Source: a virus | DNA length: 64,000 nucleotides | Virus record (IMG/VR): IMGVR_UViG_3300042401_001747 | Strand: one strand, 5' to 3' | Part shown: piece after piece, positions 4,132 to 51,677 of the stretch | Layout: each line of letters starts with the position of its first letter | Numbering within the stretch: the stretch's first letter is position 1 | The notes under the pieces: generated by a model | The model's database searches: none | Told to the model about the DNA's origin: nothing | The model's input: only the letters and a program-made list of their open reading frames with translations | Made by a program: the position numbers and the translations under genes

Positions 4132-4569
4132 TTAGAAAACTTCTTCTTCTGCAACTTCAGGACGCGTGCTGTCTTTATTTATTTCCGTGATAGCAGACAA
4201 TAAGTTACGTATATCAGGCTGGTTTGTTATTAATTTTTTATTACAACGATAGACATTTTGTCGATTGACTTTTGTCTTTGTAATTAGCCCTGCATTTATA
4301 AGGCTTTTAAGAGTTTTGTCAATCATGGTTTCACTTAAATCAAGATAAACCGAAATTGCCCTTATCGTCATCTCCTGGTCTTGCATGATTGAAATCAATA
4401 CTCTTCCCGAAGTAGACAAGAGACTGACCTCGTGTTCCTGGTGATAGCGGAGTATTTTCTTGGTGTCAAGAGCTTGCATCACTTTTTCAATAGCAACGTC
4501 GCTTTCTTCCCCTTTGGACAGCGCGTCTTCAAGCGCCTTTTTTATTTCATTGATTTTCTGAGACCTCAT
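4132..4569 (-). CDS. Winged-HTH DNA-binding protein (MarR/ArsR-like)
   Basis: MTIRAISVYLDLSETMIDKTLKSLINAGLITKTK pattern. Confidence 0.7.
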   Translation of the reverse strand: MRSQKINEIKKALEDALSKGEESDVAIEKVMQALDTKKILRYHQEHEVSLLSTSGRVLISIMQDQEMTIRAISVYLDLSETMIDKTLKSLINAGLITKTKVNRQNVYRCNKKLITNQPDIRNLLSAITEINKDSTRPEVAEEEVF

Positions 4570-41982: not shown

Positions 41983-42055
41983 GTAGAGAATGGTACCACC
42001 ATGAGTACAGACTCCCGTAGGGTACCCGTGGCACTTTGCGTGACCATCGAGAAAA

Positions 42056-42421
42056 TCAAGAAATAATGTTTCCTGATGTCATTCGGTAAAAGATGGCATA
42101 GCAGTACCGTCTGCGTCGTGTCTGTTCTCTCTCGACCTTGTACCTATGCCACCTGTTGAGCATTTCCATGCTGGCAGGTGAACGATAGCAACCTGCCTCT
42201 GTCTCTGCCTCTACCATGAGGGAGTAGAGGTTCACCTCACTACCCGTGGCACTCTGCGTGTTCACCTTCGCTTCACGCAATCCCTGAAATACTTTTGACA
42301 TGAACAGAGAGGCAACGAGCATCTGTTCGAGGTTCTCATCGTCTGTTAGGTAGTCATCGACGATACGTGACACACGAATAGCCTGATGGACACTATGTGA
42401 AGGGAAATAGATGCCTGCCAT
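42056..42421 (-). CDS. Hypothetical protein
   Basis: 121-aa ORF co-oriented with neighbours. Confidence 0.5.
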   Translation of the reverse strand: MAGIYFPSHSVHQAIRVSRIVDDYLTDDENLEQMLVASLFMSKVFQGLREAKVNTQSATGSEVNLYSLMVEAETEAGCYRSPASMEMLNRWHRYKVEREQTRRRRYCYAIFYRMTSGNIIS

Positions 42422-42627
42422 CTGCGCAGAGTATCACTCCACTAACGAGAGGGGTGGCTATCCCCACTTGATTTCTTTGGTCTGTTTGTCTTGGGGCTCT
42501 ACTGATAACACTTCGAGCATGTCTCCTTGACTGAGAAGGTTGCGCACTAGGGATAGTGCCTCATCTACTGATGATGGTATGTCAAGGTCACTGCGCTGAC
42601 CTACTGTAACGGTGATTCGGTATGTGT

Positions 42628-42861
42628 TCATGCCTTGTACCATACAGCCTTAGATAGGCGAGCGATGCTAGATGCCTGCTGAGGTGATGAGCAAGGGATA
42701 CGCCTAATGATGCGATGCGTATCATCTGATGTCGTTACTGATAACCACACCTCCACGATGTTACCTATGGCATTGATGTAGGTGACTGTCCCCTCTGATG
42801 CTAGGTCAATGATGGGTGAGGTGAGTAGATGGTCTATTGGTGATGAGGTGATGGTGTTCAT
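42628..42861 (-). CDS. Hypothetical protein (plausible portion of the 42628-43257 ORF)
   Basis: MNTITSSPID... begins about 8 nt after a TTTACT-N17-TACTGT promoter; the upstream part is low-complexity. Confidence 0.5.
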   Translation of the reverse strand: MNTITSSPIDHLLTSPIIDLASEGTVTYINAIGNIVEVWLSVTTSDDTHRIIRRIPCSSPQQASSIARLSKAVWYKA

Positions 42862-44250
42862 GTGAAGGACAGTACACGAGGGGTGGTACACAGTAAAGGG
42901 GGTGAGGGGCAAGGGTGATGATGTTTCTAAATACGAGGGGTAGTGAGATGGGTAATAGATAGGGGGTGATGAGGTGAGGGGTAGATGATGAATGATGAAT
43001 GAGTGAGAGGTATGAGTGATGAGAGGGGTAAGAGATGATGAGGTAATGATGACTAGGTAGGTAGGTAGGTAGGTAGGTAGGTAGGTAGTGATGATAGGTA
43101 GAGGGGAGGGCAAGAGGTAAGAGGTAGAGATGATGATGAGTAGAGGGGGTAGGGGTAAGGGGTAGCAATGATGGAGAGTAGAGAGAGGTAGAGGTAGAGG
43201 GGTAGAGGTGATGAGAGGTGATGATGAATGATGATAGGTATCCAATCGGATACGCACTAGGTAGGTGATGATGATGGGGTATGTGTACTACTACCCGTGA
43301 GACACCCATGGCACTTGCGAAAAAGGTGAGGGGGTAGAGGTGAGGTGAAAGGGTCAAGGGGTGAGGGGGTGATGATGATGATGAGGGGTGATGGTCAAGG
43401 GGGTAAGGGGTGAAGGCATGAGGTGAAGGGGTGATGAGTAGAGGGGTAGGGGTAGGTAGATGATGAGGTAGGTATGGGTATGGGTATGTATGTGTAGGGG
43501 TATGTACTAGTACCCGTGTACTACCCGTGGCACCTGCGAAAAAACAACACAACAAATGATGACGATGATGACGATGACGAATGGTCAAGGGGTGATGGGC
43601 ATAGGGGGTAGGGCATAGGACATAGGGGGTAGGGGTAGTGATGACGATGGTCAATGACCAACGATGATGATGCGATACACAATGCGTAATGACAATGATG
43701 ATGATGCGATAGGCATAGGCATAGGCAATGCGATAGTCAATGCGTGATGATGCGATGCGATACACGATGCGATACGCAATACACAATGATGACGAACAAT
43801 AATAAATGCGATGATGTAATGCGATACGCAATGCGATGCGATGATGTAACGATGATGCGATGACGATGAACGAATGATGATGTGTCAATGCGATGACGAT
43901 GCGTAATGCGATGACGATGTGCGATAGTCAATGCGATGTGATGTGATGACATCGTGCGATGCGATGACGATGCGTCAATGAATGATGAACAACAATGATG
44001 ATGATGTGATGACGATGTGTCAATGCGATGTGTGTATGTCAATGAATGATGTGATGTCACAACTCTACTGATGGTGATAGAAGTGTGACTATGTGTCACG
44101 CTTCTGTGTGTGTGCGTGTGGTGGCGTGTGTAATAGCGTGCCTATGGGGCGCGCTTCTGTGTATGAACAGGCAGTGTGTGTTCTGTTGTGTATGCCATAC
44201 ACAGGGGAGTAGGGGGGTGGGGGTATAGCCCCGCGAGCTTTCAACCGAGG
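42850..44250. repeat. Strand-biased low-complexity non-coding tract with iteron-like repeats
   Basis: C-poor GGTA/GAT/GGGGT words, (TAGG)8 at ~43054-43085, then GCGAT/GATGAC words; two ~45-bp repeats at 43280-43324 and 43501-43544. Confidence 0.85.
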
Positions 44251-46213: not shown

Positions 46214-47050
46214 AAGTTTTTTAACAAGTCTCTCCATCGGAACAAGATGATGGTCGAGCAATGTTATTTTTTCATCTTCCATTCTCTTGTTTCTTAGAAC
46301 AGAGTTAAGTGGACGATGAGCTGGTCTTTGGCTGCGGATGTCTTCAGTTTTTACGGGTTTCACGGGGGTACTGATGCCGGCGAAATCTAGTACATTCTTT
46401 GCGAAATCATACCAAGACGTTTGTCCTTGATTTGTCACGTGCCAAATGCCGGGAGAATTAGAAATTGACATCTCAAGTATTCGTAATGAAGCATCGTCTG
46501 CAAATGTAGGGTGACCAATCTGGTCGTCGACAAAAGATAATTCCGAAGAGCCTTCCGCTATTCGAAGAATTGTCTTAACCATATTTGAACCATTCTTGCC
46601 GTTCACCCAAGACACGCGTATTACCGAGTCTGTTGGTCTCATGCATGTTTCTCCTTGAAGCTTTGTTAAGCCATATGTAGAGATAGGGGAAGGCGAATCG
46701 TTTTCTTCGTAAGGCGATTTTTTGTTTCCGTCGAAAACATAGTCTGTCGAGATGTATGTTACGTGCGCGTCAACTTCTGCAGCGGCCTGTACTACGAACC
46801 TGGTGCCATCAGCGTTTATTGACTCTGCCTTGACTTGATGTTTTTCGCACTCATCCACGGCTGTCCACGCTGCACAGTGAATAATATGTGTTGGCTGGTG
46901 TTTTCTTATTGAATCAATTACGTCTGCTTGATTGCTGACGTTTAGTCCTCGTTTATCAAGCGCGACAGTTTCGTATCCGTGCTCGATGCTACGTTCTACT
47001 ATTTCTGAGCCAAGCTGTCCACCAGCTCCAGTAATGAGGACTTTATACAT
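46205..47050 (-). CDS. rmlD: dTDP-4-dehydrorhamnose reductase
   Basis: LITGAGGQLG, AAWTAVDECE, YISTDYVFDG, YGLTK, VDDQIGHPT. Confidence 0.93.
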   Translation of the reverse strand: MYKVLITGAGGQLGSEIVERSIEHGYETVALDKRGLNVSNQADVIDSIRKHQPTHIIHCAAWTAVDECEKHQVKAESINADGTRFVVQAAAEVDAHVTYISTDYVFDGNKKSPYEENDSPSPISTYGLTKLQGETCMRPTDSVIRVSWVNGKNGSNMVKTILRIAEGSSELSFVDDQIGHPTFADDASLRILEMSISNSPGIWHVTNQGQTSWYDFAKNVLDFAGISTPVKPVKTEDIRSQRPAHRPLNSVLRNKRMEDEKITLLDHHLVPMERLVKKLLA

Positions 47051-48002
47051 TCTTGAGCGGTTCCCACCACCAACGATTAGACCGATACCAGTCAATCGTG
47101 TGGCTAAGGGAGTCTTCGATGTTGTGAACAGGCTTCCAGCCAAGTGCAGTAATTTTACCTACGTCCACCGAATAGCGTCTGTCGTGTCCTTTTCTATCCT
47201 CAACATGCTCAATCCAGTCTTTAGGGTCCTGTTCAAAGTAACGAAGAATCATGTCCACGAGCTGAATGTTTGAGGTGCCGTTGCCTGCGCCTATGTTATA
47301 AATTTGTCCGCTTTCACCGTGCGTGAGGACTCTATGTATGGCGGCACAATGGTCAAAAACGTCAATCCAGTCTCTTTCGTTGAGACCGTCTCCATATAGA
47401 GGTATTTTTTTGTTTTGAAATATGTTCGTGGCGAATAGCGGTATTGCTTTTTCTGGAAACTGATACGGCCCGAAGTTGTTGGTGCACCTAGTAACTGACA
47501 CTGGGAGCCCGTGTGTATGGAAGTGGGACAGCGCTATAAGGTCTGAGCCTGCCTTGGATGCTGAATAAGGAGAGCGCGGCTCTAGTGGGTCTGTCTCTAG
47601 TGAAGAGCCGGTCTCAACGGAGCCATACACCTCGTCGGTGCCGATATGCACAATTCTCTTCACCCCTAGTTGATAAGCAACATTCATTACAGAGTCTGTA
47701 CCAGTGCAGTTTGTGCGCACAAAGTCATCGGAAAGAAGTATTGACCTGTCAACATGTGTCTCTGCCGCGAAATGGACTACGTAGTCGGACCCTTTCATGG
47801 CTGCAAGGAGAGATTCCTTGTCACAAACGTCTCCGTATGCAAAGTGGACTCGTGGAGAATCTATGAAGTCGCTCATCGTCGTCAATAATCCTGCGTAAGT
47901 CAGCATGTCGTAGACTGTTACTTCGTCGTCTGTATTGTTTAGTACGTAGCGAACGTAGTTGGAGCCTATGAACCCGGCTCCGCCGGTTACGAAGTGTTTC
48001 AC
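47043..48002 (-). CDS. rmlB: dTDP-glucose 4,6-dehydratase
   Basis: VTGGAGFIGSN, HFAAETHVDRS, TDEVYG, SPYSASKA, NNFGPYQFPEK. Confidence 0.95.
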   Translation of the reverse strand: MKHFVTGGAGFIGSNYVRYVLNNTDDEVTVYDMLTYAGLLTTMSDFIDSPRVHFAYGDVCDKESLLAAMKGSDYVVHFAAETHVDRSILLSDDFVRTNCTGTDSVMNVAYQLGVKRIVHIGTDEVYGSVETGSSLETDPLEPRSPYSASKAGSDLIALSHFHTHGLPVSVTRCTNNFGPYQFPEKAIPLFATNIFQNKKIPLYGDGLNERDWIDVFDHCAAIHRVLTHGESGQIYNIGAGNGTSNIQLVDMILRYFEQDPKDWIEHVEDRKGHDRRYSVDVGKITALGWKPVHNIEDSLSHTIDWYRSNRWWWEPLKNV

Positions 48003-48003
48003 G

Positions 48004-48570
48004 TTATGTCCTTGAGTCGTACATTGGTTTTAGTGTTGCTGGAATGTCTAATATTAGTGGATTGTTTTTGTCCCTATCGGAAACGATGGGGTTCTCAATA
48101 ACTTCGGCAATGTTTATGTCTGGGTCGTTCCAGAGTATTCCTAGCTCGTCGTTTTTGTTGTAGTAATTATCAACCATATAGGTGATGGTCATGTCTGTTA
48201 TTGAGTAAAACCCATGTGCCACGCCGGGTGGAATAAATACGCCGCGGTGGTCGTGGGTGTTTTCATCTATCATTCCAAGCCGTGTCGTGTAAGTGTTTCC
48301 GTAAGTAGGGGAACCTTCTCTAATGTCGTGAAGAATAACTAAACACGTCCCAAATGGGACATACCAATAATCTGCTTGATGTAGGTGATAATGGAGACCC
48401 ACTAGGCAGCCGGCTTTTCTGTCTCCTCTATTTCCTTGAATCATCTCTCGACCTAGAGGCAACCAGCTTCGCCTGTATGTTTCTACGAAGTACCCGCGCT
48501 CGTCTCCGTGCTTGTCGGGGTGAACTATTAGTACGTCTTTTATTTCCGCACACTCTTCAAATTTTGGCAT
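48004..48570 (-). CDS. rmlC: dTDP-4-dehydrorhamnose 3,5-epimerase
   Basis: HGDERGYFVE, GLHYH, DIREGSPTYG, IPPGVAHGF, WNDPDI. Confidence 0.93.
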   Translation of the reverse strand: MPKFEECAEIKDVLIVHPDKHGDERGYFVETYRRSWLPLGREMIQGNRGDRKAGCLVGLHYHLHQADYWYVPFGTCLVILHDIREGSPTYGNTYTTRLGMIDENTHDHRGVFIPPGVAHGFYSITDMTITYMVDNYYNKNDELGILWNDPDINIAEVIENPIVSDRDKNNPLILDIPATLKPMYDSRT

Positions 48571-49628
48571 TACTCTACCTCTACTACGCTGTAGTCACTT
48601 ATCATCAGTTTTAATGCTGATGGCTTCTGTTCTGATTGTTTCACGATAGCCGAACGGCCTACTAGAGAGTCGCTCATTCTTGCAATGTCTGTAACCGTGC
48701 TGCCTTTGAGAAGAACGGAGTTTTGAATTTCTGAATTTCTCACAACACAGTCAGGGCCTATGGATGTGTATGGCCCTATATACGAATCGGAGATTATTGC
48801 ATTATCCGCTATGGATACTGGCCCAATAATTCTGGAATTGTATATCTGAGACTTTCCTATCTTTACTTTTCCGTCTGCCGTAAAAGAGTTAAGAGGGTTA
48901 TCGTATATATCTCGTTCGATTGCGTCAAGAACGAGTCTATTGCACTCAAGAAGAGGGTCTTTTTTGCCAGTATCAATCCACCAGCCATCGAGTATCTCGT
49001 AAGCCACTCTGCTGCCAGAATCTATTAAGTTTTGTATGGCGTCCGTTATCTCAAGTTCGCCTCGTGGTGAGGCTTTGATTTTTTTGATGCTTTGATGTAT
49101 TTCTTTTGAAAACATGTAAACACCAACTAGCGCCAAATTGGATTTTGGGTTGGCTGGTTTTTCTACCAATGTTTTTATTCGGCCGTCATCACCTATTTCA
49201 GCAACTCCGAACTGGCTAGCATCTTCGACTTCTTTCAGAAGAAGTTTTGCGTCGAAACCGGCCATACCGTCAAGTACAAAAGAGGTAAGACTGGACTCAA
49301 TCATGTTGTCTCCTAGATACATGACGAAATTATCTTCACCTAGAAAATCTGAAGCGATATATACGCAATGAGCTAAGCCAAGCGGAGCGCCCTGAGTTAT
49401 GTAAGTTATTTTTGCACCAAAAGCCGAACCGTCCCCAACGGCCTCAATTACTTCGTTCGCCGTAGAGCCAACAATGATTGCAATGTCGTTTATTCCAGCA
49501 TTAACCATGTCTTCTATGCCGTAAAAAAGTATCGGCTTGTTGGCAATGGGGACTAACTGTTTTGCGCTCGTGTGTGTTATTGGCCTAAGTCTCGTTCCAG
49601 AGCCGCCAGATAAAATTAAACCCTTCAT
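48570..49628 (-). CDS. rmlA: Glucose-1-phosphate thymidylyltransferase (long form)
   Basis: LSGGSGTRLRPITHTSAKQLVPIANKP, LGDN, EKP, RGELEITD; C-terminal hexapeptide-like region. Confidence 0.95.
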   Translation of the reverse strand: MKGLILSGGSGTRLRPITHTSAKQLVPIANKPILFYGIEDMVNAGINDIAIIVGSTANEVIEAVGDGSAFGAKITYITQGAPLGLAHCVYIASDFLGEDNFVMYLGDNMIESSLTSFVLDGMAGFDAKLLLKEVEDASQFGVAEIGDDGRIKTLVEKPANPKSNLALVGVYMFSKEIHQSIKKIKASPRGELEITDAIQNLIDSGSRVAYEILDGWWIDTGKKDPLLECNRLVLDAIERDIYDNPLNSFTADGKVKIGKSQIYNSRIIGPVSIADNAIISDSYIGPYTSIGPDCVVRNSEIQNSVLLKGSTVTDIARMSDSLVGRSAIVKQSEQKPSALKLMISDYSVVEVE

Positions 49629-50015: not shown

Positions 50016-50042
50016 GTTCCTATGTTTCTATTATCTTTCTAG

Positions 50043-50116
50043 TGGGCCCTCTGGGACTTGAACCCAGGACTGACGGATTATGAGTCCGGCGCTCTAACCA
50101 ACTGAGCTAAGGGCCC
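50043..50116 (-). tRNA. tRNA with CAT anticodon, most likely tRNA-Ile2 (lysidine-modified)
   Basis: GGGCCCTTAGCTCAGTTGGTTAGAGCGCCGGA-CTCATAA-TCCGTCAGTCCTGGGTTCAAGTCCCAGAGGGCCCA: full cloverleaf resembling bacterial Ile2; no encoded CCA. Confidence 0.9.
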
Positions 50117-51083: not shown

Positions 51084-51242
51084 TTATTTTTGATTGCTGT
51101 TTTTATCTAGGTACTCGTGTATTGCTTTTCTGAGAAGCGAGCCTACTGATAGTTTTTCTTTTTCCGACACCAATACCAGACGGTCGTGAAGCTCTCGCGA
51201 TATGTGTAGTACTAGTTTTTCGTAATCTGTTAATTTTTTCAT
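51084..51242 (-). CDS. Ribbon-helix-helix protein
   Basis: KLVLHISRELHDRL...EKLSVGSLLRKAIHEYL. Confidence 0.65.
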   Translation of the reverse strand: MKKLTDYEKLVLHISRELHDRLVLVSEKEKLSVGSLLRKAIHEYLDKNSNQK

Positions 51243-51255
51243 AATTCCTTCTTTG

Positions 51256-51332
51256 TGCTGGAGGCGAGATTTGAACTCGCGTGTCACCATCTACCCTTTC
51301 TACACTTTATAAGAGTGAGGGGATACTCCAGC
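51256..51332 (-). ncRNA. Non-canonical tRNA-like RNA (anticodon-type loop TAT, no 5' D-arm)
   Basis: Acceptor stem GCTGGAG/CTCCAGC-A, T-arm GCGAG-TTCAAAT-CTCGC, and CACT-CTTATAA-AGTG arm only 8 nt after the acceptor strand. Confidence 0.7.
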
Positions 51333-51347
51333 CATCGCTTTTTGTGG

Positions 51348-51677
51348 CTAAAGAGCGATGGCTATTCGAATGTTTTCTGTTAAGCGGCTTTTGCTGTAAC
51401 CGCCCCTCGAAGGAACTAGTCCGCCGAATACGCCGTCTTTAAACATTGCAAAAGCAGGAATTGACATTACGGAGTATCGCTTGCCAAATTCTGGAAACTC
51501 TTCTATGTCCATTTTTGCAAATATTACTTCTTCGGCCATTTCTGTTGACAGTTCATCGATGAGTGGTGCAATTATCCTGCAAGGCCCACACCAGGGTGCC
51601 CAAAAGTCAACAATGACTGGTTTATCTGCGCTTTGGATAAATTCATCAAAAGTGTTTGCGTTTAGTTCTGTTGTCAT
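51348..51677 (-). CDS. trxA: Thioredoxin
   Basis: VDFWAPWCGPC; SIP cis-Pro loop. Confidence 0.92.
   Translation of the reverse strand: MTTELNANTFDEFIQSADKPVIVDFWAPWCGPCRIIAPLIDELSTEMAEEVIFAKMDIEEFPEFGKRYSVMSIPAFAMFKDGVFGGLVPSRGGYSKSRLTENIRIAIAL

What the first reader, a model, noticed from the sequence alone, without database searches (positions are those of the whole stretch)
51256..51332. tRNA-like RNA with rearranged arms and a UAU anticodon-type loop, near tRNA-Ile2
Seen (minus strand): GCTGGAG TATCCCCT CACT-CTTATAA-AGTG TAGA AAGGGTA GATGGTGACAC GCGAG-TTCAAAT-CTCGC CTCCAGC A. The acceptor stem and T-arm are perfect, but there is no D-arm 5' of the anticodon arm. Instead TATCCCCT can pair with AAGGGTA to extend that arm around a TAGA bulge, and a D-loop-like TGGT lies 3' of it. 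The loop CU-UAU-AA would read AUA, the same codon read by the lysidine-dependent tRNA-Ile2 encoded 1.1 kb away. Inference: a non-canonical tRNA giving TilS-independent AUA decoding, or a tRNA mimic or decoy for anticodon nucleases.
Basis: partly seen in the sequence, partly recalled or inferred. Interest (0 to 1): 0.7.

Follow-up and report, generated by a model that had tools for sequence, protein, structure and literature searches.

The report
Rewired phage isoleucine tRNA (UAU)
This 77-base phage gene is a real, widely conserved transfer RNA, most likely for the isoleucine codon AUA, whose D-arm pieces lie on either side of the anticodon arm instead of before it, so it breaks the textbook cloverleaf and gene finders miss it.

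Summary
Window 51256-51332 (minus strand) has a perfect acceptor stem, T-arm and CUUAUAA anticodon loop, but no D hairpin. ARAGORN misses it; Rfam's tRNA model scores 34.5 bits only by deleting the D-arm.

It is not a decayed tRNA. I collected 98 distinct relatives from phage contigs. A 3-bp helix (nt 11-13 with 37-39) encloses the anticodon arm. It is paired in 100% of them, and all three pairs show compensatory changes. An invariant GAAA bulge and a D-loop-like AG..GGU..CAC segment follow.

Equivalents of U8-A14, the 15-48 pair (G-C changing to A-U) and G18G19 are kept, and the number of stacked layers equals that of a normal tRNA.

The same layout occurs with GAU, CAU and a few arginine anticodons; the arginine forms switch the base after GG from U to A, the ArgRS determinant.

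Related phages hold a canonical tRNA-Ile(UAU) in the same slot. Complete relatives carry the rewired gene as their only UAU tRNA, within a set that mostly reads A-ending codons. AUA makes up 31% of this phage's Ile codons.

Cultured Streptomyces and crAss-like phages carry it unannotated. I found no paper describing it. This scan has met the family before on other DNA. Expression and charging remain untested.

The parts
51326..51332 (-). Acceptor stem, 5' strand (nt 1-7, GCUGGAG)
   Evidence: Pairs perfectly with 51257-51263. All 7 pairs covary in 98 relatives, 98.8% paired.
51323..51325 (-). U8 A9 U10 connector, invariant in the family
   Evidence: U8, A9 and U10 are invariant in 98 of 98 sequences. 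U8 with A41 is proposed to stand for U8-A14 (inference).
51320..51322 (-). Enclosing helix, 5' strand (nt 11-13, CCC). It occupies the place of D-stem strand 23-25.
   Evidence: 100% paired with nt 37-39. Double compensatory changes occur in 18, 57 and 32 of 98 sequences. RNAalifold predicts the helix independently.
51318..51319 (-). C14 U15, 5' side of the internal loop (proposed equivalents of nt 26 and 27)
   Evidence: C14 is invariant and nt 15 is U or C. They face U31 and R32 as non-Watson-Crick partners.
51303..51317 (-). Anticodon hairpin: stem CACU/AGUG and 7-nt loop CUUAUAA. The anticodon UAU lies at 51309-51311.
   Evidence: The four stem pairs are 99.7% paired and all covary. The loop has U33 and A37/A38.
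51297..51302 (-). U31 A32 plus the invariant GAAA bulge (nt 33-36)
   Evidence: GAAA is invariant in the 98 strong family members, but three of the four search patterns required it. Divergent members carry other bulges. Its role is inferred: filling the groove of the enclosing helix.
51294..51296 (-). Enclosing helix, 3' strand (nt 37-39, GGG). It occupies the place of D-stem strand 10-12.
   Evidence: See the 5' strand.
51281..51293 (-). U40 plus the D-loop-like segment A41 G42 A U G45 G46 U47 G A C50 A51 C52
   Evidence: A41, G45, G46, C50 and A51 are invariant. Positions 42 and 52 covary like the 15-48 Levitt pair (GC 85, AU 4, GU 1, GG 8). U47 corresponds to position 20: it is U in all Ile-type forms and A in the Arg-type forms.
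51264..51280 (-). T-arm: GCGAG / UUCAAAU / CUCGC
   Evidence: A 5-bp stem, 98.6% paired, with 4 of 5 pairs covarying, and a canonical UUCRANY loop.
51256..51263 (-). Acceptor stem 3' strand (CUCCAGC) and discriminator A77. No CCA is encoded here.
   Evidence: The discriminator is A in all 97 forms with NAU anticodons and G in the CCU form. Twelve of the 67 UAU relatives encode CCA directly after it.
51331..51362 (-). Leader hairpin spanning the thioredoxin stop codon and the first two tRNA bases
   Evidence: -8.6 kcal/mol, z = -3.0. The same hairpin, with changed bases, is seen in close relatives L005-L014. A role in processing or in stabilising the upstream mRNA is inferred.
50042..50116 (-). 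Canonical tRNA(CAU), probably tRNA-Ile2, the second possible AUA reader
   Evidence: ARAGORN and Rfam at 71.3 bits. It has C4-G69 and C5-G68.

Best explanation
The element is a working elongator tRNA of a phage-specific family with a rewired core.

Proposed route (inferred): it is transcribed within the minus-strand gene array and cut out at both ends. CCA is added by a nucleotidyltransferase, because this copy encodes none. Host IleRS charges it with isoleucine, and it reads AUA through its UAU anticodon.

The fold is a three-way junction rather than a cloverleaf. The chain runs from the acceptor stem through U8 A9 straight into one strand of a D-stem-like helix, then down and up the anticodon hairpin, past a GAAA bulge, and up the other strand of that helix. 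Only then does it pass through a D-loop-like segment (A14, G15, G18 G19, U20 equivalents) into the T-arm.

The stack is 4 anticodon pairs + Y.U + C.R + 3 pairs + U.U + U8-A41 + G42-C52. That equals the number of layers in a normal tRNA, so the L shape and the distance from anticodon to elbow should be kept.

Shown here: the conservation, the helices, the covarying tertiary-type pair, the gene context and the codon usage. Inferred: the 3D fold, processing, charging and decoding.
For: 1. Family and structure.
- More than 119 viral contigs match a loose pattern that does not demand pairing.
- 67 distinct UAU forms (A1) and 98 distinct forms overall (A3) keep 19 pairs at 99.8% pairing, and 17 of the 19 pairs show compensatory changes. 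Shuffled and slid controls fall far below.
- RNAalifold predicts the same structure on its own.

2. Tertiary equivalents.
- U8/A41 are invariant. G42-C52 changes to A42-U52 in 4 strong members and in further divergent ones, never to A-C or A-G.
- GG and the UUC of the T-loop are invariant.

3. Identity elements follow the anticodon.
- All 97 NAU forms in A3 have A73 and a U after GG.
- All five Arg-anticodon candidates (CCU, UCU, ACG, and two less clean ones) have an A there.
- This matches ArgRS A20 and IleRS U20/A73 as listed in Table 1 of PMC9976931.

4. Slot equivalence.
- Downstream of the thioredoxin gene, 21 relatives hold the rewired form and 6 hold a canonical tRNA-Ile(UAU).
- None of 141 loci with the rewired form also holds a canonical UAU tRNA.

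5. tRNA arrays.
- In L243 the gene abuts tRNA-Lys and tRNA-Ile(GAU) base to base, inside a 19-tRNA array.
- Two complete 151-156 kb relatives carry 11 canonical tRNAs, nearly all for A-ending codons, plus the rewired UAU as the only AUA-type U34 tRNA.

6. Demand: AUA is 31% of Ile codons (16.7 per 1000) in the window's ORFs.

7. Encoded CCA follows the discriminator in 12 of 67 UAU relatives.
Against: - There is no expression, end-mapping or aminoacylation evidence for any member, and the L-shaped fold is inferred from sequence.
- Several E. coli IleRS determinants (C4-G69, U12-A23, C29-G41) are not conserved at the equivalent positions.
- The anticodon stem has only four Watson-Crick pairs plus a Y.U.
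- A U34 left unmodified could also read AUG.
- Some phages carry a canonical tRNA with the same anticodon beside a rewired one: Streptomyces phage EGole has both GAU forms. This hints at a role that is not simply redundant supply.
- The crAss-like copy has two U.U mismatches in its acceptor stem.
Confidence: 0.72

Rival explanations
1. It is a tRNA mimic or decoy that is not used in translation. It would bind and occupy a host tRNA-targeting defence nuclease or a tRNA-modifying enzyme, protecting the real tRNA-Ile pool. A variant of this idea: it is a charged, working tRNA whose rewired core exists mainly to escape such a nuclease.
For: Phage tRNA variants are known counter-measures to tRNA-cleaving immunity, for example PARIS/AriB and the phage T5 tRNAs (PMC12409363). 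Some phages keep a rewired tRNA next to a canonical one with the same anticodon. This window carries two candidate AUA readers.
Against: A pure decoy would not need A73, an encoded CCA, or the U20-to-A20 switch that accompanies the Arg anticodons. The rewired and canonical UAU forms exclude each other in the same slot. No tRNA-Ile-specific defence nuclease is known to me (own knowledge). No partner gene is conserved nearby: the most widespread neighbouring family occurs in only 29 of 135 loci.
Confidence: 0.17
2. It is a tRNA-like processing signal ('punctuation'). RNase P and RNase Z would cut the polycistronic transcript at it, and it has no decoding role.
For: It lies in a 105-nt gap between two co-directional genes, with no promoter-like or terminator-like site nearby. 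A conserved hairpin at its 5' edge could cap the upstream mRNA after cleavage.
Against: A punctuation role needs only the acceptor and T arms. Here the anticodon arm, its 7-nt loop and a narrow set of anticodons are kept: of all anticodons that do not start with U, only GAU, CAU and CCU were found. The D-loop-like segment is kept too. The gene also sits inside ordinary tRNA arrays.
Confidence: 0.06
3. It is a decayed or rearranged tRNA pseudogene.
For: Standard finders reject it.
Against: There are 98 distinct variants in very different phages. Helices are 98.6-100% paired with abundant compensatory changes, and the junction residues are invariant.
Confidence: 0.01

Closest known systems
Canonical bacterial and phage tRNA-Ile (Rfam RF00005): GAU, lysidine-CAU (tRNA-Ile2) and the rarer UAU type
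   Same: 7-bp acceptor stem, A73, canonical T-arm, 7-nt anticodon loop with U33, A37 and A38, length 75-78 nt, a GG elbow motif, and position in phage tRNA arrays. It shares a genomic slot with the cloverleaf tRNA-Ile(UAU) of sister phages.
   Different: There is no D hairpin between nt 9 and the anticodon arm. The two strands of the D-stem-like helix flank the anticodon arm, the D-loop-like segment takes the place of the variable loop, and a GAAA bulge is added. The result is a three-way rather than a four-way junction.
D-armless mitochondrial tRNAs (metazoan mt-tRNA-Ser(AGY), nematode and mite minimal tRNAs; reviewed in PMC7609411 and PMC4013460, from titles and abstracts)
   Same: A three-armed secondary structure without a D hairpin, with an extended anticodon-side helix.
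   Different: Those tRNAs are truncated and lose the D-loop/T-loop contact. By their abstracts (PMC1636415 and PMC12221289), they depend on co-evolved organellar factors such as a dedicated EF-Tu. This family is full length, keeps a D-stem-like helix and the GG motif, and occurs in phages of bacteria with ordinary translation machinery.
allo-tRNAs with 8/4 or 9/3 acceptor/T-stem geometry (PMC5389517, abstract)
   Same: Non-canonical tRNAs found by mining metagenomes. Bacteria and their phages carry them, and standard finders overlook them.
   Different: allo-tRNAs keep the cloverleaf order of arms and change stem lengths. Here the stem lengths are canonical (7/5) and the order of strands is changed.
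Permuted, split or intron-bearing tRNA genes (for example Cyanidioschyzon merolae, PMC3728597, abstract)
   Same: The gene order of tRNA segments departs from the cloverleaf order.
   Different: In those genes processing restores a normal cloverleaf RNA. Here the 5' and 3' acceptor strands are already at the ends, and removing no single segment yields a cloverleaf, so the mature RNA itself must be rewired (read directly from the sequence).

Membership tests
tRNA (Rfam RF00005, cloverleaf elongator tRNA) | 7-bp acceptor stem with unpaired discriminator | tested here: met
   Perfect in the window. 98.8% paired in 98 relatives, with all 7 pairs covarying.
tRNA (Rfam RF00005, cloverleaf elongator tRNA) | T-arm: 5-bp stem and 7-nt UUCRANY loop | tested here: met
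   GCGAG/UUCAAAU/CUCGC. 98.6% paired in relatives.
tRNA (Rfam RF00005, cloverleaf elongator tRNA) | Anticodon arm with 7-nt loop, U33 and purine 37 | tested here: met
   Loop CUUAUAA. Four Watson-Crick pairs plus a U.U in place of pair 27-43.
tRNA (Rfam RF00005, cloverleaf elongator tRNA) | D-arm hairpin between nt 9 and the anticodon arm (four-way junction) | tested here: not met
   Infernal deletes 15 D-arm positions. ARAGORN of 98 family members.
tRNA (Rfam RF00005, cloverleaf elongator tRNA) | Score at or above the family's gathering threshold | tested here: met
   34.5 bits against 29, but only with permissive filters; the default gathering run missed it. Relatives score 33-38 bits.
tRNA (Rfam RF00005, cloverleaf elongator tRNA) | Tertiary core: U8-A14, R15-Y48, G18G19 with the T-loop | tested here: inconclusive
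   Sequence equivalents are present. U8/A41 are invariant, 42-52 covaries between G-C and A-U, and GG is invariant. The 3D contacts themselves cannot be tested here.
tRNA (Rfam RF00005, cloverleaf elongator tRNA) | 3' CCA end and aminoacylation | not testable with these tools
   CCA is encoded after the discriminator in 12 of 67 UAU relatives but not in the window. No RNA data were available.
Bacterial tRNA-Ile identity set (PMC9976931, Table 1) | A73, A35, U36, A37, A38, U20 | tested here: met
   All are present in the window. A73 and U20 are invariant in the 97 NAU forms of A3.
Bacterial tRNA-Ile identity set (PMC9976931, Table 1) | C4-G69, U12-A23, C29-G41 | tested here: not met
   The window has G4-C69, G-C at the 12-23 equivalent and A17-U29 at the 29-41 equivalent. 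All three positions vary in the family.
D-armless mitochondrial tRNA | Truncated length, unstructured D-replacement loop 5' of the anticodon stem, loss of the GG elbow motif | tested here: not met
   The length is 75-78 nt, a covarying D-stem-like helix is present, and a GG-bearing segment lies 3' of the anticodon arm.
Permuted or intron-bearing tRNA gene | Processing (circularisation or removal of one segment) restores a cloverleaf | tested here: not met
   The acceptor strands are terminal and in the normal order. Removing no single contiguous segment gives a cloverleaf.
tRNA pseudogene | Eroded stems, no purifying selection, restricted to one lineage | tested here: not met
   Helices are 98.6-100% paired, 18-19 pairs covary, and 98 variants occur across unrelated phages.

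The most novel reading that the evidence does not exclude
Phages have evolved, and spread widely, a second solution to the tRNA fold. It is a three-way-junction tRNA in which the strands of the D-stem are swapped around the anticodon arm. Ordinary bacterial synthetases, EF-Tu and ribosomes accept it. It is kept beside cloverleaf tRNAs because the altered core makes it invisible to host enzymes that recognise the normal D-arm or core, such as tRNA-targeting defence nucleases or toxins.
Probability: 0.2. Interest if true: 0.92.

Novelty: new variant of a known kind. Interest (0 to 1): 0.85.

Why it matters
- The cloverleaf is among the most conserved RNA architectures. The known natural exceptions that still translate come mostly from animal mitochondria, which have co-evolved partner proteins. 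A full-length tRNA with a different strand topology, apparently used by ordinary bacterial translation systems in hosts as far apart as Streptomyces and Bacteroides, would show that the L shape is what is constrained, not the cloverleaf wiring.
- Phage tRNA repertoires are under-counted. ARAGORN found 0 of 98 members, GenBank records leave the gene blank, and one record labels it tRNA-Leu.
- The fold offers a natural new scaffold for engineered or orthogonal tRNAs.
- Cultured carrier phages exist, so the question can be tested directly.

Tried and rejected
- Exact-match scan of viral contigs with 54 nt of the element: no hit. A looser pattern was needed.
- Whole-genome tools: no genome is held for this window.
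This says nothing about expression.
- Genome-contig scan: 52 pattern hits, of which only 2 are true members (an Actinomycetota MAG contig with a tRNA array and a short Snowella MAG contig). The other 50 are chance matches.
- Scans for the same layout with a UNN anticodon other than UAU: one chance match (34 = U, 35 not A) and no match (34 = U, 35 = A, 36 not U). These patterns required the URGAAA bulge, so divergent forms escape them. Model searches then found UCU, ACG and UCG forms with other bulges. Two of those five (L337, L339) have poor acceptor or enclosing helices, and I do not count them as secure.
- Search for a conserved partner protein within 3 kb of 135 non-identical (dereplicated) loci: no family occurs in more than 29 loci, and the common ones are ordinary phage genes such as thioredoxin.
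- BLAST of a CAU form against isolated phages: no match.
- A kink-turn reading of the internal loop is rejected, because the opposite strand (C, Y) lacks the tandem G.A partners (read from the sequence).
- Seven literature searches found no description of this layout. The library lacks most subscription journals, so this is not proof of absence.

Full report
**What is in the window**

On the minus strand, 51332-51256 reads as a 77-nt RNA:
- a perfect 7-bp acceptor stem (GCUGGAG/CUCCAGC) and discriminator A;
- a canonical T-arm (GCGAG, UUCAAAU, CUCGC);
- an anticodon hairpin CACU/CUUAUAA/AGUG.

Between the acceptor strand and the hairpin lie only UAUCCCCU. After the hairpin come UAGAAA, GGGU and AGAUGGUGACAC.

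ARAGORN reports only the canonical tRNA(CAU) at 50042-50116. Rfam's default run also misses the element. With permissive filters RF00005 matches it at 34.5 bits (threshold 29), but it deletes the 15 D-arm positions and inserts 18 nt in the variable region. The single sequence folds better than its shuffles (z = -3.46).

The gene sits in a 105-nt gap between a thioredoxin gene (51348-51677, Pfam PF00085, E = 2.7e-27) and a small ORF that starts at 51242. All are on the minus strand, and no promoter-like or terminator-like site lies nearby.

**It is a conserved family**

Using the flanking proteins as anchors, I fetched related IMG/VR phage contigs. The element lies directly after the thioredoxin gene in relatives whose thioredoxin is only 43-98% identical.

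The decisive observation is in the pairing. Where the window has UCCC...GGGU, relatives have UCGG...CCGU, UCUC...GAGU, UACC...GGUU or UUCC...GGAU.

Of the 82 distinct stretches found, 79 are clear members. In 596 Gb of bacterial and archaeal genomes the same pattern gave 52 hits, of which only 2 are real: an Actinomycetota MAG contig and a small Snowella MAG contig. The family is essentially confined to phages.

**Secondary structure**

Pairing statistics:
- 67 distinct UAU sequences (alignment A1) form 19 pairs at 99.8% pairing, and 17 of the pairs show changes on both sides. No shuffle out of 500 reached these values, and sliding the partners by one to three columns dropped pairing to 30-50%.
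- On 98 distinct sequences that include other anticodons (A3), the enclosing helix (nt 11-13 with 37-39) is paired in 100% of cells. Double changes occur in 18, 57 and 32 sequences.
- RNAalifold, run without my structure, predicts the same 19 pairs.

The register that fits is C11-G39, C12-G38 and C13-G37.

Invariant residues are U8, A9, U10, C14, G33-A36 (GAAA), A41, G45, G46, C50 and A51. U40 is U in all but one sequence. Part of this invariance was imposed by my search patterns (U8 A9 U10, C14, GAAA, U40, A41). The anticodon loop of the UAU set was fixed in the same way.

**Why I read it as a rewired tRNA core (inference from the sequence data)**

Count the layers from the anticodon loop upward:
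- four Watson-Crick pairs;
- Y15.U31 (place of 27-43);
- C14.R32 (place of 26-44; it is C-G in 4 sequences);
- three Watson-Crick pairs plus U10.U40 (place of the four D-stem pairs);
- U8-A41 (place of U8-A14);
- G42-C52 (place of G15-C48).

This is the same number of layers as in a cloverleaf tRNA.

The 42-52 pair behaves like the Levitt pair. It is GC in 85 sequences, AU in 4, GU in 1 and GG in 8. A42 is never matched with C, G or A. The cultured-phage copies and several divergent members also have A42 with U52. G45 G46 and the UUC of the T-loop supply the usual elbow partners.

In effect, the 5' D-stem strand and the D-loop of a normal tRNA have been moved to the place of the variable loop. 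The anticodon arm and the D-stem then form one long hairpin hanging from a three-way junction. The role of the GAAA bulge is open; filling the groove normally occupied by nt 9, 45 and 46 is my guess.

**The layout is not specific to AUA**

I ran pattern scans that left the anticodon free. They returned the same layout with GAU in about 20 loci, with CAU in about 8, and once with CCU and discriminator G. They returned nothing real for other anticodons that start with U.

The covariance model R1 then found further members in jumbo-phage tRNA clusters: UCU, ACG and a doubtful UCG form with different bulges, and forms with an extra hairpin.

The base after GG is U in all 97 forms with NAU anticodons and A in all five Arg-anticodon candidates. 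U20 and A73 are listed as IleRS determinants, and A20 as the main ArgRS determinant (PMC9976931, Table 1 and the arginine identity section). Synthetase identity positions that follow the anticodon argue that these RNAs are charged.

**Context argues for decoding**

- Downstream of the thioredoxin gene, 21 relatives carry the rewired UAU gene and 6 carry a cloverleaf tRNA-Ile(UAU). None of the 141 loci with the rewired gene also has a cloverleaf UAU tRNA within the DNA I held.
- In the Actinomycetota MAG contig the gene (1411-1486) touches tRNA-Lys (ending at 1410) and tRNA-Ile(GAU) (starting at 1487) inside an array of 19 tRNAs.
- Two complete relatives of the window's phage (151 and 156 kb, with terminal repeats) have 11 cloverleaf tRNAs: Lys UUU, Pro UGG, Leu UAG and UAA, Gln, Asn, Ser UGA, Val UAC, Arg UCU, Thr UGU and CAU. 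Nearly all read A-ending codons. The rewired UAU gene fills the AUA place.
- In the window's ORFs AUA makes up 31% of Ile codons, 16.7 per thousand.
- Twelve of the 67 UAU relatives encode CCA right after the discriminator.

**Cultured carriers**

BLAST against GenBank phages found the GAU form in two places:
- about 48 Streptomyces phage records, such as Jay2Jay, EGole, Samisti12 and Coruscant;
- the crAss-like Kehishuvirus 'tikkala' of Bacteroides cellulosilyticus.

Almost all of these records leave the site unannotated. EGole labels it tRNA-Leu (UUA), but its loop is CUGAUAA.

EGole also has cloverleaf tRNA-Ile(GAU) and tRNA-Ile(UAU). In the crAss-like phage the gene fills an unannotated gap in a tRNA array, next to a cloverleaf UAU tRNA annotated as tRNA-Ile, and its acceptor stem has two U.U mismatches. 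ARAGORN detects none of the 98 family members.

**Rivals**

- Pseudogene: excluded by the covariation.
- Pure processing signal: it would not need the anticodon arm or the restricted set of anticodons.
- Decoy, or a defence-evading role: this remains possible, because some phages keep the rewired and cloverleaf forms of one anticodon side by side, and phage tRNAs are known to counter tRNA-cleaving immunity (PMC12409363). Against a pure decoy stand the identity switch, the encoded CCA and the slot equivalence. No partner protein is conserved nearby.
- I hold 'working tRNA-Ile(UAU)' at about 0.72. No expression or charging data exist.

**Known or new**

Seven full-text searches found no description of this layout. 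The closest published classes are D-armless mitochondrial tRNAs, allo-tRNAs and permuted tRNA genes, and each differs as set out in the comparison fields.

This scan has already noted the same family many times on other DNA, and earlier follow-up agents reached the same reading. My tests here were made independently on this window and its relatives.

It is a tRNA, so the kind is known. The topology is a new variant.

Noticed in passing
window 51331-51362 (-): A hairpin joins the last codons and stop of the thioredoxin gene to the bases just 5' of the tRNA, overlapping G1 and C2 (-8.6 kcal/mol, z = -3.0). Close relatives keep it with changed bases. It could cap the upstream mRNA after RNase P cleavage.
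   Followed up: partly
window 50042-50116 (-): A canonical tRNA(CAU) with G1-C72, C4-G69 and C5-G68, most like tRNA-Ile2. If so, the phage carries two different AUA readers 1.1 kb apart. The same CAU tRNA sits right next to a cloverleaf tRNA-Ile(UAU) in relative L089.
   Followed up: partly
window 54744-63728 (-): A giant ORF of 2994 aa or more (open to the window's end), with an RNase T-type exonuclease domain near the N-terminus and a long pentapeptide-repeat region near the C-terminus.
   Followed up: no
window 47043-49628 (-): A nucleotide-sugar gene set in a phage: an NTP transferase with a hexapeptide domain, a dTDP-4-dehydrorhamnose 3,5-epimerase and a nucleotide-sugar epimerase. It may serve DNA or surface sugar modification.
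   Followed up: no
window 42001-44000: A sharp local GC-skew peak (+0.36, against at most about 0.13 in absolute value elsewhere). It overlaps two overlapping minus-strand ORFs (42628-43257 and 42806-43888) that have no PHROG match.
   Followed up: no
L326 2498-2574 (Streptomyces phage EGole MK494112 75265-75341): GenBank annotates this as tRNA-Leu (UUA), but it is a rewired tRNA with loop CUGAUAA (anticodon GAU). About 45 sister records leave the site blank. The same phage encodes a Ro-like protein, an RNA ligase, a polynucleotide kinase and a tmRNA.
   Followed up: partly
L343 (G001 169734-169822) and L344 (G005 4368-4457): Rewired UAU tRNAs from two different phage contigs share an extra hairpin (UUGAGAUAACAUCAA) between the D-loop-like segment and the T-arm, like a variable arm. 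In these jumbo-phage clusters ARAGORN also calls several oddly long (84-97 nt) tRNAs, such as His, Asn, Trp, Lys, Thr and Gly.
   Followed up: no
A3, CAU-anticodon rows (e.g. L303 4089-4165, L311, L319, L322): Most rewired CAU forms carry G at the position before the T-stem (a G.G at the 15-48 equivalent) and a U.U mismatch at the second T-stem pair. This is a subgroup signature of unknown meaning. Whether they are Ile2-type or Met-type was not resolved.
   Followed up: no
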